A stretch of DNA of 64,000 nucleotides from Euglena gracilis (GCA_039621445.1 CP154954.1:3105715-3169714); one strand, 5' to 3'; positions 29,916-57,600 are shown, numbered from the stretch's first letter. The notes: generated by a model not told the origin, from the sequence alone. Translations and numbers: made by a program.

Positions 29916-31038
29916 AGGGAGCCTGAGCGAGAAAATGAAAATTGGAGCAACAAAACAGACACAAGAAAGTGAAAAAAAAATAAATAAAGACAGAAGGTCA
30001 AAACAACCAGTTGATTTGTTGCGGGGCTATGGACTGGGTAGCTCTGCCAACTTTTCCAACTTGGTCACTTTTGTTTTTCATGAGGGAAACAAGGTTCAGT
30101 CCGAATGCTTTTTGTGGCCACACAAGAAGTGGAAAATGATCCATGGGGTCCAAGGCGGGAAAGAACTGGGTGACTGGTTTTCGAAAAATGGCTGACGGGT
30201 TTTTTTGAAAGTGGAAAATGAACCCCCCCCTGGTGGTCGGCAAGCAATGGTCTGGTGGTGGTGCATGCCCCTGCCACCCAATAACAATATGGGGTGGTTA
30301 CCCAGTTTGATGGGGTTGTGACATTTTCTCTTGGACGGGATACGTTGATGTGGGAGGTGAGATTAGTTCATCCTTTCCTCCTCAGAGATTCACTCAGCGA
30401 ACCCCCCCCCCCCGGGGCACTTTCCACTTACCCCCTGGCACAAACCCCAAAACCCGACCACCCACGGGCCGTTGCCTCTCGCAACGCCCATTCGCGTTCA
30501 GCCACGGGCCGGGCTATAAGGGTACATTACTTGTCACGGACGATGGGGACTCTGCAACACCTTTGCGGTCCGTTTCAGCACACCCTCCGTGCGGCGGGGG
30601 CGGCCGATTGCTCAAAGTGCTGTGGGTCCCATCCGGGGAGAACACCTCCCAGCGATGTTTATTCATTCATTCATTCATTCATTATTCTGTGCGGCGCATT
30701 GTTCTGCGAACTCTGGATGGCAAAATTAGGGTTTTTGGTGGATCCTCTCCGGCCTGCCGTTGGGCTCATCGCAAGATCCAAACTTTTGGCATTTCTATGG
30801 TGGCAGGCGCGGCTCCAACCTGCTCCACCCCTGTATTGGCAACCGGTCGGGGAGGAAACGCGGCAGGCGACCTGCCCGGGCAATGTGGGGTCAGGGCTCA
30901 GAAGGAGGTTTCTGCCTTGTGGAACCGCTGGGGCCCGAAATGAGGGGGACAGGGCACTTCTGAAGGCCTTGGCCAAATGGTGTGGAACAAGCCGAGGCGG
31001 GCATGGGAATCACCGGAATCCCGGGAAACACCTGAGAA

Positions 31039-31449
31039 CAGGGTTCGATATAAGGACAGGTGGGGGGGGTGGTCCGGGCCCTCCCCCGCGGGCCCGGAGG
31101 GGAGGGGGGGGGGGGCGCGACTCTCCCCCCCACCTAAACAGTTGCGCGGTCTGGGTTACCGAAAAATTTTGACCCCCAAAACGACCAAAAGTGCCATTTT
31201 GGGCACTTTTTGGGCAAAAATGTGCCAAAAATGCAAAAAAAAATTTCGGCACGAAGCGCCGGGGGAAAAATTGACCCTTTTTGGGGGGGGGTCCCGGGAA
31301 CCCCCCCCCCCCCCCGAGGGTCGGGCCGGACCCCCTGGCAGGGGGGGGGGGGTGGTCCGGACCCCCCCCCCTGCGGGCCAGGTGGGCGGTGGGTTGGGGG
31401 GGGACACCCCCCACCTAAACCATGTACGCCCTCCTTATATCAAATCCTG
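31039..31449. mobile_element. hAT-like MITE, 18-bp TIR (16/18), 8-bp TSD (7/8)
   Basis: cctgagaa|cagggttcgatataagga … tccttatatcaaatcctg|cccgagaa. Confidence 0.8.
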
Positions 31450-54600: not shown

Positions 54601-57600
54601 TCACAAAACACAACGATGTCACATTGTAAATACCCACTGCCGCAAATACACAGACAGAGTGTTTGACGAGCAATATTTTTCCTGGTTGAAAGTTTTTTCC
54701 TGGTTTTCCTGGTTGAAAGTTATGTCTTTTGGTTTGCAAGCACATACGATGGTAACCCCGGACACACAACGCTCACACCAAATGCAATAAACACAAATCT
54801 GGCATAAATAAATCCCAGTTTGCAGGCACAATATGCACAAATGATTTTGTTGATTGCATCTATTCATTTCACCAGTTGATTGCACATCCAGCATATGAGA
54901 GCCATGTGCAAAGTGCAAATAAATGGACATGGAAATATCTCTATCTGCACACTGTACCATCTTGCGAAAAAACAAAAACCATAAAAATTCATATCAAAAT
55001 GACAAATTCTCTGGCAGTGATGCGATGGCAAAAATCCGTCTGCGGCGCACATTCCCAGAATGAATGATGCGCATAATCCGTGGGAATGATTTCATGGTTG
55101 GCAAACAAATCATGGGTGATAAATGGGGTTCGATTGGGAAACTGGTCAGACATAAGCCCGTTTGGTGGGTGCCTGTGGTACCTGCTGGGAGGGACCATGT
55201 GGATGGCAGCATACACTTGACACATCGAAGGGGGGGGGGAGACGGTGGCCACACCGGCCAGACAGCTACAACAACATGGGTGCAGAGGTCAACAACGCTC
55301 AGCCCCTCCCCTGTGGGGTTGCGCCGGGCTTGGAGGTCCGGTCCTGCTGGCCGTTGACCCGCAGCGCCGGCCGGCGTTCCGCCAAAGCGCTGCCGCGCAC
55401 CGCCTCCGCGAACTTGGCCGGCACGTACAGCGCCTCCAGCTGGAGAATGCGTGCCGCTGCTCTCCCGCAGGGCACTTTTCATTTGGCCCCACTTCAATCT
55501 CGAAGACCCCCCGTGTCACCCCCAATGTCCCCCCCCCGTGTCACTCCCCGTGTCCAGGGGATTTCTTAAGGACCCCCCCCGGGGGGGGGGGGGGTCCAGC
55601 CTCCGGCTGGCAAAAAGGCTGCTGGCTTGATTTGAGCTGGCTGGCTGGCTGGCTGGACCCACCCGGGGGGATGGGGGGGGGGGAGGGGGGTCCGGGGCTG
55701 GCTGGCCGTGACCCGCATCGCCGGCCGTCTTCCGCCAAAGCCGCCGCGCACCGCCTCCGCGTAACTGCCTGCACTACGTACAGCGCCTCCATCTGGAAAT
55801 GCGTGCCGCTGCTCTCCACTTTCATATGGCCCACTTCAATCAGCAAACCATAACTGAAGACACATGGAAATATCTCTATCTGCACGTGTCGATACCATCT
55901 TGCGAAAAACCCCCCAAAAAAATAAAAAATAAAAATTCATATCAAAATGACAATTCTCCGGCAGTGATGCGATGGCAAAAAGTCAATCTGCGGCGCACAT
56001 TCCGAAATGAATGATGCGATGATCTGTGGAATGATTTCCTGGTTGGCATCTTCGACGTTTTGGTGGATGGAGCTAGAGCAAGGCTGGTGGGCTGTGATGG
56101 AGGAAGCTGTGGTGAGGGGGAGAAATGCAGGGATAGGTGACCTGGGTAGCCCAGTTGGTTGGCTAGCCTGCGGCCAGCTGGCCCGGCCTCCGGCCGGGCT
56201 GGACCCGACTTTATTTCACTCAAGCCCCGGGGGGGGGGGGGGGGCGCTGCCAGCAAGAATTTAGGCTGCTGGCTGGATTTGAGCTGGCTGGCTGGCTGGC
56301 TGGCTGGGTACCCTCCGGGCTTAGACATCCCCTGCCGGTCACCCCCCCCTCCCGGTCACCCCATGTCCCCCCCCCGTGTCCCCTTGTCATCCCCCCTGTG
56401 TAACCCCCCCTCCCCCGTGTCACCCCCCCCCTCCCCCGTGTCATCCCAATGTCACCCCCCGTGTCATCCCCAACAGGTGTCACCGACCTGGGTAGCCCAG
56501 TTTGGCTGGCCATCCTCGTCCATGCTGGCCCTGCCTCCGGCCGGGCTGCCCGACTTTGTCACTCAAGCCCCGGGGGGCGCTGCCACCCGATATTGGGCTG
56601 CTGTCGGTTTGAGCTGCTGGGCATGGCTGCTGGACCCCCCTGGGGGGTAGGGTACCCTCCGCTTAAGAAATCCCCTGCCCGTGTCACCCCCCCTCCCCCC
56701 GTGTCACCCCCATGTCACCAACCCGTGTCACCCCCCGTGTCCCCCGTGTCATCCCAATAGTCACCCCCCCCGTGTCACCCCCGTGTCACCCCTGTGTCCC
56801 CCTTAGTTGCACTAAGGCTTCTTCTCACCCCTGTGTCCGCCCCGTGTCACCCCCCCCATGTCCCCCCCCTGTATCACCCCCCATGTCCCCCCCCCCCCCG
56901 TGTCACCACCCCCGTGACCCCCCCGTGTCACCCCCCGTCACACCCCATATCCCCCCCGTGTCTCCCCCCATGTCCCCCCCGTGTCACCCCCCCCGTGTCC
57001 CCCCCCGTGTCACCCCCCCACCGTGTCACTCCCCCATGTCACACCCCCCGAGTACCCTCCCCCATGTCACCCCCCTGTGTCCCCGTGTCACCCCCCCCCT
57101 GCCCCGTGTACCTGCCCCAAAAACATGTCACCCCCCCCCCCCGTGTAATGAAACCCCTCCCCCCGGGCTTACCCGGGCAGGCATCCAGGGAATTCGAGAC
57201 CAACCTTCCCCCCAGGGTTTAGCCTGTCGAGGCTCATGGGCCAACTTCGAAATTTCGCCCTGTGCGTTTCATTCTTCAGGAATTCCAAGGACAACGGGGG
57301 CATACCCGATTCGACCATCCCCAGCTGACACCCCTCAAAAGCAAACCTCCCTCCTCCCTCGTTGAGGAATAATGTCACAGGCAGATAAAAATTCTCAAAA
57401 AAAGCAGAAACACCTCCGGAAAGCACCTTTGCACAGGCATATTAATAACACATAATGAAGTTGAAATGCTTAACAAGATGTATATTTCTATATAATCTTG
57501 AAATATGGCATGTGTGAGAAAAGGACAACAATATAAAATATTTACCCCCCGGGCAATTGTCGCGTGACAAATTGGGCAGCACGGAGGGGGGTGACAATTT

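What the first reader, a model, noticed from the sequence alone, without database searches (positions are those of the whole stretch)
31031..56685. Non-conventional introns look like hAT-type MITEs: 3+5 nt splice geometry equals one 8-bp TSD
Seen: five CAG…CTG TIR elements have 8-nt flanking direct repeats: 55555-56677 (8/8, cccgtgtc), 31039-31449 (7/8), 47526-47841 (7/8), 53830-54058 (7/8) and 39816-40609 (6/8). Established: hAT transposases make 8-bp TSDs and their TIRs commonly begin CAG/TAG. Euglenid non-conventional introns have CAG at +4..+6 and CTG at -8..-6. Inference: splicing N3-CAG…CTG-N5 removes the element plus exactly one TSD, and does so on either strand. Any new insertion would then be a scarless, orientation-independent intron. 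This would explain the otherwise arbitrary splice-site offsets and make these MITEs intron generators. At 47526-47841 and 39816-40609 such removal joins open minus-strand frames (ECLG-GSLVVAG; ACTG-CLPWWKVYDKA). A transposon origin has been suggested for these introns, so check whether the 8-bp hAT link is already described.
Basis: partly seen in the sequence, partly recalled or inferred. Interest (0 to 1): 0.85.

Follow-up and report, generated by a model that had tools for sequence, protein, structure and literature searches.

The report
Transposon copies that mimic Euglena-type introns
Small mobile DNA elements in this Euglena-like genome carry the end signals of the organism's unusual introns plus an 8-base insertion scar, but the copies that could be checked against RNA sit inside larger introns and are not introns themselves.

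Summary
Five CAG...CTG inverted-repeat elements have flanking direct repeats that match only in the 8-nt register: 7, 6, 7, 7 and 8 of 8, with background in every other register. Among strong-TIR pairs, 4 of 34 reach 7/8, against 0.04 expected. One element (55555-56677) is a composite inside a tandem array, so its 8/8 is not independent. Two further TIR elements have no repeat.

They are high-copy MITE-like DNA transposons with an Ac/hAT-like signature (CAGGG ends, 8-bp TSD). No transposase was found in the window, so hAT membership is untested.

RNA reads show a minus-strand WW-domain gene with 12 nonconventional introns that fit the published 3-nt/5-nt code. The two listed elements covered by RNA (31039-31449, 39816-40609) lie inside larger introns (30911-31641, 38456-40686). 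The listed mRNA junctions do not use their ends. The open-frame join claimed at 39816 is refuted.

The real introns show only a weak 8-register repeat signal (37/96, p=0.04); one has 6/8.

A MITE origin, TSD-like repeats and an 8-nt repeat at a new intron are already in print. The 3+5=8=hAT link was not found in print. It is a plausible, testable refinement that this window does not demonstrate.

The parts
31031..31457 (.). MITE-like element 31039-31449 (411 bp; TIR CAGGGTTCGATATAAGGA / CAGGATTTGATATAAGGA) with 8-bp flanks CCTGAGAA / CCCGAGAA. It is nested inside the RNA-verified intron 30911-31641.
   Evidence: 7/8 only at k=8; junction 30910>31642. The DNA-run summed contig depth inside the element is 1.5-3.4e5, against about 20-45 at single-copy sites; the RNA fold pairs the two ends (z -5.3).
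39808..40617 (.). MITE-like element 39816-40609 (794 bp; TIR CAGGGGTTTTCTTAAGG / CAGGGGTTTTCTTTCGC) with flanks CAGCCGAC / CAGCCGGT. It is nested inside the RNA-verified intron 38456-40686.
   Evidence: 6/8 only at k=8; junction 38455>40687.
47518..47849 (.). MITE-like element 47526-47841 (316 bp; TIR CAGGGTTTCTTTTTAAGA / CAGGGTTTTTTTTAAATC) with flanks CCCCCAAG / ACCCCAAG. No RNA evidence was obtained.
   Evidence: 7/8 only at k=8. It lies outside the stretch laid.
53822..54066 (.). MITE-like element 53830-54058 (229 bp; left TIR CAGGGGTTTTCTTAAGG) with flanks ACCTCAAC / AACTCAAC. Its left 138 bp are 76% identical to the left end of 55555. No RNA evidence was obtained.
   Evidence: The left flank lies in a 14-bp tandem duplication.
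55547..56685 (.). Composite locus. It has a left end at 55555 (CAGGGGATTTCTTAAGG) and two right ends at 56334 and 56677. It is embedded in a CCCCCCGTGTCA-type array. The 8/8 flanks CCCGTGTC are units of that array.
   Evidence: 5/8 with the 56334 end, 8/8 with the 56677 end.
29661..29915 (.). TIR element of the same type (CAGGCTTCTTTTTAAG, 14/14) without a flanking 8-bp repeat (2/8).
33445..33692 (.). TIR element (CAGGGATTTCTTAAGG / CAGGGCTTTTTTTAAG) without a flanking repeat (2/8), inside the RNA-verified intron 32676-35768.
30596..43521 (-). Span of 12 RNA-verified nonconventional introns of one minus-strand gene (plus-strand coordinates, leftmost cut): 30596-30852, 30911-31641, 31741-31956, 32081-32573, 32676-35768, 35844-36553, 36632-37529, 37618-38435, 38456-40686, 40762-41313, 41377-41947, 41978-43521.
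   Evidence: junctions are present in RNA runs X21 and X24 and in contig run X18, and absent from DNA run X16; none is GT-AG on either strand; the terminal stems fit the 3-nt/5-nt offset on the minus strand; the downstream exon starts with a purine in 12 of 12.
40762..41313 (-). The one real intron that looks like a decayed TIR+TSD element. With the cut slid by 3 (40765-41316) the TIR is CGGGGGGCCTC (11/12) and the 8-nt flanks are CCTCCGGC / CCGACGGC (6/8).
36554..36631 (-). Exon encoding most of a WW domain. It fixes the coding strand of the gene.
   Evidence: PF00397, E=2.5e-9, 37.5 bits (cut-off 26.9), on ORF 36506-36829(-); translation of the spliced exons.

Best explanation
The five features are copies of small, non-coding, high-copy DNA transposons (MITEs) from at least three related families. 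They share CAGG(G)... ends and a subterminal TTAAG-like motif.

Inferred: they were inserted at the DNA level by a transposase that makes 8-bp staggered target cuts. Ends plus TSD length point to an Ac/hAT-like enzyme.

Shown: in this window the copies that can be checked are passengers inside larger nonconventional introns of a minus-strand WW-domain gene. They are not introns in their own right.

Shown: their ends carry the published nonconventional splicing code, that is CAG...CTG with paired ends.

Inferred: because the TSD is 8 bp, which equals the 3-nt plus 5-nt spacers, a copy landing in an exon in either orientation would be removable together with exactly one TSD copy. That would leave the exon unchanged. 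This makes such elements plausible generators of these introns, but no such exonic copy was seen here.
For: - TIRs of 12-14 matches in 14, and flank identity of 7, 6, 7, 7 and 8 of 8 only at k=8.
- 4 of 34 strong-TIR pairs reach 7/8, against 0.044 expected, P=1.3e-7.
- The DNA-run summed depth is 1.5-3.4e5 inside 31039-31449 and 1.6e4 in the bin holding 39816-40399. Single-copy sites read about 20-45 and unique bins about 50-100.
- No Pfam domain was found in any of the 10 ORFs scanned in and around the elements.
- RNA junctions 30910>31642, 32675>35769 and 38455>40687 enclose three of the elements.
- The 12 real introns fit the 3/5 stem offset, and the acceptor exon starts with a purine in 12 of 12.
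- The MITE RNA folds with its ends paired.
- Literature, passages read. The code is CAG/CTG plus 3-nt and 5(-6)-nt spacers, and synthetic 50-bp introns built to it were spliced as well as natural ones (PMC12501133). A strain-specific, newly gained intron has an eight-nucleotide direct repeat (PMC4770533). Ac/Ds has TIR C/TAGGGATGAAA and an 8-bp TSD (PMC3260210).
Against: - 2 of 7 TIR elements of this type have no 8-bp repeat.
- The only 8/8 case is not independent, because it is a composite inside a tandem array.
- The elements share little internal sequence within the window.
- No transposase was found in the window, so the superfamily is inferred from ends and TSD alone.
- No empty site appears among the 15 of 539 joints that were listed.
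- The real introns carry only a weak 8-register signal: 37/96 = 0.385 against 0.298 in the other registers, one-sided P=0.04. I chose the cut register by eye. Only 1 of 12 has >=6/8.
- The TSD model does not explain why the cut is 3|5 rather than any other split of 8.
Confidence: 0.7

Rival explanations
1. These copies are themselves nonconventional introns, excised from RNA at N3...N5. That would include nested excision from within the larger introns, and exonic excision at 47526, 53830 or 55555.
For: - Their ends satisfy the published code. On the minus (gene) strand 31039-31449 is followed by N5 and then a purine (read).
- Synthetic 50-bp introns carrying only these features were spliced as well as natural ones (PMC12501133, passage read).
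- Nested excision would be invisible in mature mRNA, and 524 of 539 joints were not shown.
- Three of the five elements were not covered by RNA.
Against: - None of the 15 listed joints uses an element's own ends. The mRNA contig joins 30910>31642 and 38455>40687.
- The coding join claimed at 39816-40609 lies in an intron.
- On the minus strand 39816-40609 is followed by N5 and then a pyrimidine, against the purine rule (read).
- Open-frame joins are equally open when one base more or less is removed.
Confidence: 0.3
2. The elements are MITEs of another superfamily that makes 8-bp duplications (for example Merlin) or of an undescribed euglenid family, not hAT.
For: - Two Merlin families with 8-bp TSDs are reported in Euglena gracilis (PMC8101967, passages read).
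- No hAT transposase was seen.
- No searchable paper reports hAT elements in Euglena.
Against: - Merlin TIRs end in 5'-GG (PMC8101967). These TIRs end in 5'-CAG, and CA...TG is inverted, so it cannot belong to the duplication.
- CAGGG matches the first five bases of the Ac TIR (PMC3260210).
Confidence: 0.25
3. The 8-nt direct repeats are by-products of double-strand-break repair or microhomology, as proposed for the newly gained gapC intron. They are not transposase-made duplications.
For: PMC4770533 (passages read) interprets its eight-nucleotide repeat in this way.
Against: - The same length of 8 is seen in four independent copies, and only in that register.
- It is coupled to 12-14/14 TIRs and very high copy number.
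- Repair microhomologies are not expected to have one fixed length next to inverted ends (general knowledge).
Confidence: 0.07
4. The flank matches are chance in biased, repeat-rich DNA.
For: - Poly-G flanks give spurious hits in several registers, for example 20241/20309-21735.
- An unbiased TIR search expects about 0.5 chance hits, from the uniform-base probability. It found one non-CAG element with 7/8 flanks, at 22019-22413.
Against: P=1.3e-7 for 4 of 34, together with strict register specificity.
Confidence: 0.01

Closest known systems
Euglenid nonconventional introns and their proposed MITE origin (Milanowski et al. 2014 PMC3935182; 2016 PMC4770533; review PMC11282704; splicing code PMC12501133)
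   Same: - CAG at +4..+6 and CTG at -8..-6, paired ends, a 3-nt and a 5-nt spacer, and a purine at the start of the next exon. All are seen in the 12 introns here.
- The MITE ends match this code.
- TIRs plus 'TSD-like' junction repeats, and one 8-nt repeat at a new intron, are already in print.
   Different: - The listed elements are multi-copy DNA repeats nested in introns. They are not the units removed from the mRNA.
- In the passages I read, the papers do not state that the two spacers add up to one 8-bp duplication and do not name hAT.
- Supplements, and the 2021 J Mol Biol paper on circular intron RNA, could not be seen.
Ac/Ds and other hAT-superfamily MITEs
   Same: - 8-bp target-site duplication.
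- Short TIRs beginning C/TAGGG (PMC3260210).
- Short, non-coding, high-copy derivatives.
   Different: - No transposase, subterminal transposase-binding repeats or autonomous partner were identified.
- Euglenid hAT elements were not found in the searchable literature.
Introners: transposon-derived introns in Micromonas, Aureococcus, dinoflagellates and others. Huff et al. 2016 was seen only as a reference in PMC11170887 and as discussed in PMC11282704; the mechanism is partly recalled.
   Same: A DNA transposon whose insertion, together with its duplication, yields a precisely removable intron.
   Different: - Those elements are removed by the spliceosome using GT/AG-type sites.
- Here removal would use the separate, still unknown nonconventional machinery.
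- No exonic, spliced copy was shown in this window.
Merlin elements of Euglena gracilis (PMC8101967)
   Same: DNA transposons of a euglenid with 8-bp duplications.
   Different: Merlin TIRs end in GG. These TIRs end in CAG.

Membership tests
Euglenid nonconventional intron | Removed from the transcript at its own ends (N3-CAG...CTG-N5) | tested here: not met
   Two of the two listed elements covered by RNA, and one further TIR element, lie inside larger introns (30911-31641, 38456-40686, 32676-35768). The other three listed elements were not covered. Nested excision is not excluded, because only 15 of 539 joints were shown.
Euglenid nonconventional intron | CAG/CTG motifs whose neighbours pair and bring the ends together | tested here: met
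   TIR 12-14 of 14. The MFE fold of 31021-31467(-) pairs the ends.
Euglenid nonconventional intron | Purine at the first base of the downstream exon (code of PMC12501133) | tested here: met
   Read. It is met for 5 of 5 elements read on the plus strand and 4 of 5 on the minus strand (not met for 39816-40609). The 12 real introns meet it 12 of 12.
MITE (non-autonomous TIR transposon) | Terminal inverted repeats | tested here: met
MITE (non-autonomous TIR transposon) | Target-site duplication of one fixed length | tested here: met
   8 bp in 5 of 7 elements (one of the five is not independent); 2 of 7 have none.
MITE (non-autonomous TIR transposon) | Short, no coding capacity | tested here: met
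   229-1123 bp. No Pfam hit in the ORFs over them.
MITE (non-autonomous TIR transposon) | High copy number | tested here: met
   DNA run X16. The summed depth is 1.5-3.4e5 within 31039-31449 and 1.6e4 in bin 39736-40399, against about 20-100 in unique DNA. G/C runs may inflate these figures. The other three elements were not covered.
MITE (non-autonomous TIR transposon) | Insertion polymorphism (empty sites) | tested here: inconclusive
   No empty-site joint is among the 15 listed of 539, and no DNA contig spans an element.
hAT superfamily | 8-bp target-site duplication | tested here: met
   Definition from PMC3942097 and PMC3260210.
hAT superfamily | Short TIR beginning C/TAG(GG) | tested here: met
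   CAGGG or CAGGC ends, compared with the Ac TIR C/TAGGGATGAAA (PMC3260210).
hAT superfamily | Autonomous partner encoding a hAT transposase (BED finger, DDE core, hAT dimerisation domain) | not testable with these tools
   No genome is held. None was found among the 23 ORFs scanned with Pfam.
hAT superfamily | Target consensus nTnnnnAn (motif recalled, not read in a paper) | tested here: inconclusive
   A at position 7 in 4 of 5 duplications and T at position 2 in 0 of 5 (read).
Merlin superfamily | TIR ending in 5'-GG, with an 8-9-bp duplication | tested here: not met
   The duplication length fits but the TIRs end in CAG. Definition from PMC8101967.
Introner-type transposon-derived intron | An exonic insertion of a repeated element is spliced out, restoring the exon | tested here: not met
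   No exonic copy was seen. The 12 real introns have no in-window similarity to the MITEs apart from nested copies.

The most novel reading that the evidence does not exclude
The nonconventional splicing code of euglenids is the footprint of one class of DNA transposon. On this reading CAG...CTG is the end of an Ac/hAT-like TIR. The otherwise arbitrary 3-nt and 5-nt spacers are the two parts of its 8-bp target-site duplication. The same Y|R preference reported at both junctions would arise because both junctions are the same position in two copies of one duplication.

Every new insertion, in either orientation, would then be a scarless intron from the moment it lands. These MITE families would be the still-active source of most euglenid introns. 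The excision machinery would have evolved, perhaps from the transposon's own protein, to remove the element plus one TSD at the RNA level.
Probability: 0.4. Interest if true: 0.8.

Novelty: new member of a known kind. Interest (0 to 1): 0.55.

Why it matters
How euglenids came to have most of their genes broken by introns that ignore the GT-AG rule is an open question, as are the way these introns spread and the way they are removed. The MITE hypothesis has been in print for over a decade, but the papers read here name no concrete transposon family behind it.

This window supplies real, high-copy TIR elements from a genome that uses these introns. Their ends are the intron code, and their duplication length equals the sum of the two experimentally fixed spacers. 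That turns the hypothesis into three sharp tests:
- an 8-nt register excess at young introns;
- a hAT-type transposase with matching ends;
- scarless splicing of a natural MITE knocked into an exon in either orientation.

It also shows that introns here grow by nested insertions of such elements.

Tried and rejected
- The look-up of sequencing runs: no RNA holder listed. RNA raw-read runs of the same species label were laid instead.
- Only one lay of 20 kb was allowed. I chose 23800-43700 to avoid long tandem repeats. As a result 47526-47841, 53830-54058 and 55555-56677 have no RNA evidence.
I used stop-free ORFs instead. They gave no transposase, only RVT_1, a sub-threshold Phage_integrase, a sub-threshold rve and WW.
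- Metagenome scan for the 17-nt TIR: 104 single matches, about the number chance would give by my rough estimate. None has a credible partner end (0 with fewer than 4 mismatches; the 2 loose partners have 2/8 flanks). Dead end.
- Earlier findings of this scan: nothing.
- Rfam: 0 matches.
- In-window BLAST of elements and introns: little shared sequence beyond TIRs and G/C runs.
- Open-frame joins as evidence of coding: rejected, because controls that remove one base more or less are equally open.
- Empty alleles: none among the listed joints of DNA run X16, which is uninformative.
- Literature on a hAT or 8-bp link. Searches found nothing relevant. One search found only the Merlin paper. One search found no euglenid introner paper that names a superfamily. 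Supplementary tables (for example the junction tables of PMC4770533 and the sliding-distance data of PMC12501133) and the non-open 2021 J Mol Biol paper could not be seen and may bear on priority.
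Full report
**What is in the sequence.**
Each begins with CAG and ends with CTG. In the first 14 bases their ends are complementary at 12, 13, 12, 12 and 14 positions. 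The 8 bases before CAG and the 8 after CTG agree as follows:
- 31039-31449: 7/8
- 39816-40609: 6/8
- 47526-47841: 7/8
- 53830-54058: 7/8
- 55555-56677: 8/8

I compared the k bases on each side for k = 2 to 14. Only k = 8 gives these values. Every other register is at background, apart from single chance-level values of 3/3 and 6/9.

**Is it more than chance.**
The window holds 65,865 CAG..CTG pairs 60-3000 bp apart. Of these, 0.13% have >=7/8 flank identity. Among the 34 pairs with TIR >=12/14, 4 reach that level, against 0.044 expected (P = 1.3e-7). The same 34 pairs give 0, 1, 0 and 0 hits at k = 6, 7, 9 and 10. With looser TIRs (787 pairs at >=10/14) there are 5 hits against 1.0 expected, and one of the five is a poly-G artefact that scores in several registers. 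The 8-bp duplication is therefore real for three elements at 7/8 and likely for the one at 6/8.

**Caveats on the observation.**
- *The composite locus.* The element 55555-56677 sits in a CCCCCCGTGTCA-type tandem array whose unit contains the 'duplication'. Its right end is present twice (56139-56334 ~ 56485-56677). Its interior (55686-56048) resembles the DNA to its left (54927-55499). Paired with the nearer right end, its flanks match only 5/8. Its perfect 8/8 is not independent evidence.
- *Elements without a repeat.* Two further elements with the same kind of ends, 29661-29915 (TIR 14/14) and 33445-33692, have 2/8 flanks and no alternative partner within 8 kb. So 5 of 7 such elements show the repeat.
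- *Families.* The TIRs fall into at least three types:
  - CAGGGG(A/T)TTTCTTAAGG at 39816, 53830, 55555/56677 and 33445;
  - CAGG(G/C)TT(T)CTTTTTAAG at 47526 and 29661;
  - CAGGGTTCGATATAAGGA at 31039.

  Internal similarity within the window is slight.

**What RNA shows.**
One lay of reads was allowed. I put it on 23800-43700, which holds two of the listed elements and two others and avoids the long tandem repeats. Two RNA raw-read runs and one contig run agree on 12 junctions that the DNA run lacks (last base before > first base after):
- 30595>30853
- 30910>31642
- 31740>31957
- 32080>32574
- 32675>35769
- 35843>36554
- 36631>37530
- 37617>38436
- 38455>40687
- 40761>41314
- 41376>41948
- 41977>43522

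None is GT-AG on either strand.

Read on the minus strand, the introns fit the euglenid nonconventional pattern:
- Terminal stems lie in the 3-nt/5-nt offset, several with a mismatch and two off by one base.
- CAG is at +4..+6 in 3 of 12.
- The downstream exon starts with a purine in 12 of 12.

The spliced exons encode a WW domain on the minus strand (PF00397, E = 2.5e-9). The reading frame stops in exon 35769-35843, so at least five of the introns lie in the 3' untranslated part.

**The listed elements are not the introns.**
- Element 31039-31449 lies inside intron 30911-31641.
- Element 39816-40609 lies inside intron 38456-40686.
- Element 33445-33692 lies inside intron 32676-35768.

None of the 15 joints shown uses an element's own ends. 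A further 524 joints were not shown, so rare nested excision cannot be excluded.

However, removing one base more or less gives joins with open stretches just as long on both sides. Open frames say nothing in this GC-rich DNA. The remaining three elements have no RNA evidence.

**What the elements are.**
Inside 31039-31449 the summed contig depth of a DNA run is 1.5-3.4e5, against about 20-45 at single-copy sites nearby. The bin holding 39816-40399 reads 1.6e4, against about 50-100 in unique bins. G/C runs may inflate this, but the elements are clearly highly repeated. They are short (229-1123 bp). No protein domain was found in the ORFs scanned over them and around them. As RNA, their ends pair.

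These are MITE-like, non-autonomous DNA transposons. An 8-bp duplication with short TIRs beginning C/TAGGG is the Ac/Ds signature (PMC3260210, passages) and the hAT rule (PMC3942097, passages). That makes a hAT-like transposase the best guess. It is only a guess:
- No transposase was found among the 23 ORFs scanned.
- No genome is held.
- The recalled hAT target consensus is half met (A at position 7 in 4 of 5, T at position 2 in 0 of 5).

Merlin elements with 8-bp duplications are reported in Euglena gracilis. Merlin TIRs end in GG, which these do not (PMC8101967, passages).

**Does the 3+5 = 8 idea hold.**
The geometry is established, not just a logo. In knock-in tests the donor spacer must be 3 nt and the acceptor spacer 5 (or 6) nt. 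Synthetic 50-bp introns with CAG/CTG, those spacers, pairing and a purine were spliced as well as natural ones (PMC12501133, passages). So a CAG...CTG element with an 8-bp duplication would, by arithmetic, be removed with one duplication copy, on either strand.

Two points limit the claim.
- Any split of 8 would restore the exon, so the model explains the sum and not the 3|5 cut.
- The real introns here keep little of a duplication. In the 8-nt window 37 of 96 positions match (0.385), against 0.298 over registers 3-13 (one-sided P = 0.04, with the cut register chosen by eye). Only intron 40762-41313 looks like a decayed element (TIR CGGGGGGCCTC 11/12; flanks CCTCCGGC/CCGACGGC, 6/8).

Apart from nested repeats, the introns have no similar sequence elsewhere in the window.

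**What is already in print.**
- The MITE origin was proposed in 2014 (PMC3935182, passages).
- Direct repeats at junctions are noted repeatedly (PMC12621601 and others, passages).
- A 2024 review draws these introns with TIRs (CAG/CTG at +4..+6 / -8..-6) and 'TSD' repeats at the borders (PMC11282704, passages).
- In Euglena agilis 84% of introns have junction repeats (PMC12501133).
- A strain-specific, newly gained gapC intron has 'eight nucleotide direct repeats'. Its authors read this as double-strand-break repair (PMC4770533, passages).

In the passages I read I found no statement that the two spacers add up to one duplication and no mention of hAT. Four searches found none either. Supplements and the non-open 2021 paper on circular intron RNA could not be checked.

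**Verdict.**
The elements are a new set of euglenid MITEs with an Ac/hAT-like signature. In this window the copies that could be checked are passengers in introns, not introns. The link between the spacer sum and an 8-bp duplication is a neat and apparently unprinted refinement of a known hypothesis. It is consistent with published experiments and with one published young intron, but it is not demonstrated by this window. It yields clear tests, listed under next steps.

Noticed in passing
window 23338-26643 (+), wider 22500-27800: Retroelement with a reverse transcriptase (PF00078, E=3.3e-9) followed by a tyrosine-recombinase-like ORF (Phage_integrase, E=6e-5, below cut-off). This is a DIRS-like layout. 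The DNA-run depth here is 3-5e5, so it is very highly repeated.
   Followed up: partly
window 4062-4946 (-): ORF with a sub-threshold integrase core match (rve, E=6e-6, 26.8 bits against a cut-off of 32.6). Probably an LTR-retrotransposon remnant.
   Followed up: no
window 30475-35843 (-): The WW-domain reading frame stops in exon 35769-35843, yet at least five more spliced exons follow. The 3' untranslated region therefore carries at least five nonconventional introns.
   Followed up: partly
window 39555-39770 and 34867-35204: A very high-copy repeat (DNA depth up to 8.7e5) with two copies in the window (80-85% identical). It has strand-biased RNA depth in the size-fractionated library X24 (7.8 against 0.5). 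There is no Rfam match.
   Followed up: no
window 29807-29873: About 290 RNA reads of X21 show a 'goes back 67' joint and poly-C loose ends inside the TIR element 29661-29915. This is probably an artefact of G/C runs shared by many copies, but it is unexplained.
   Followed up: no
window 22019-22413: A 395-bp element with TIR TTCTCCCCC / GGGGGAGAA and 8-nt flanks TTCAGAGT / TTCAGAAT (7/8), but no CAG end. About 0.5 such hits are expected by chance among the 1352 candidates, from the uniform-base probability, so it may mean nothing.
   Followed up: partly
window 22753-23022; 48887-49055; 56695-57096: A 270-bp G-rich run, an (AC)84 microsatellite, and a roughly 400-bp CCCCCCGTGTCA-type array that reads as a proline-rich open frame on the plus strand.
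   Followed up: no
window 43629-43912: A loose end of the mRNA contig at 43628 continues with sequence found near 43913. A thirteenth intron and about 930 nt more of the transcript therefore lie to the right, possibly reaching the untested elements.
   Followed up: partly
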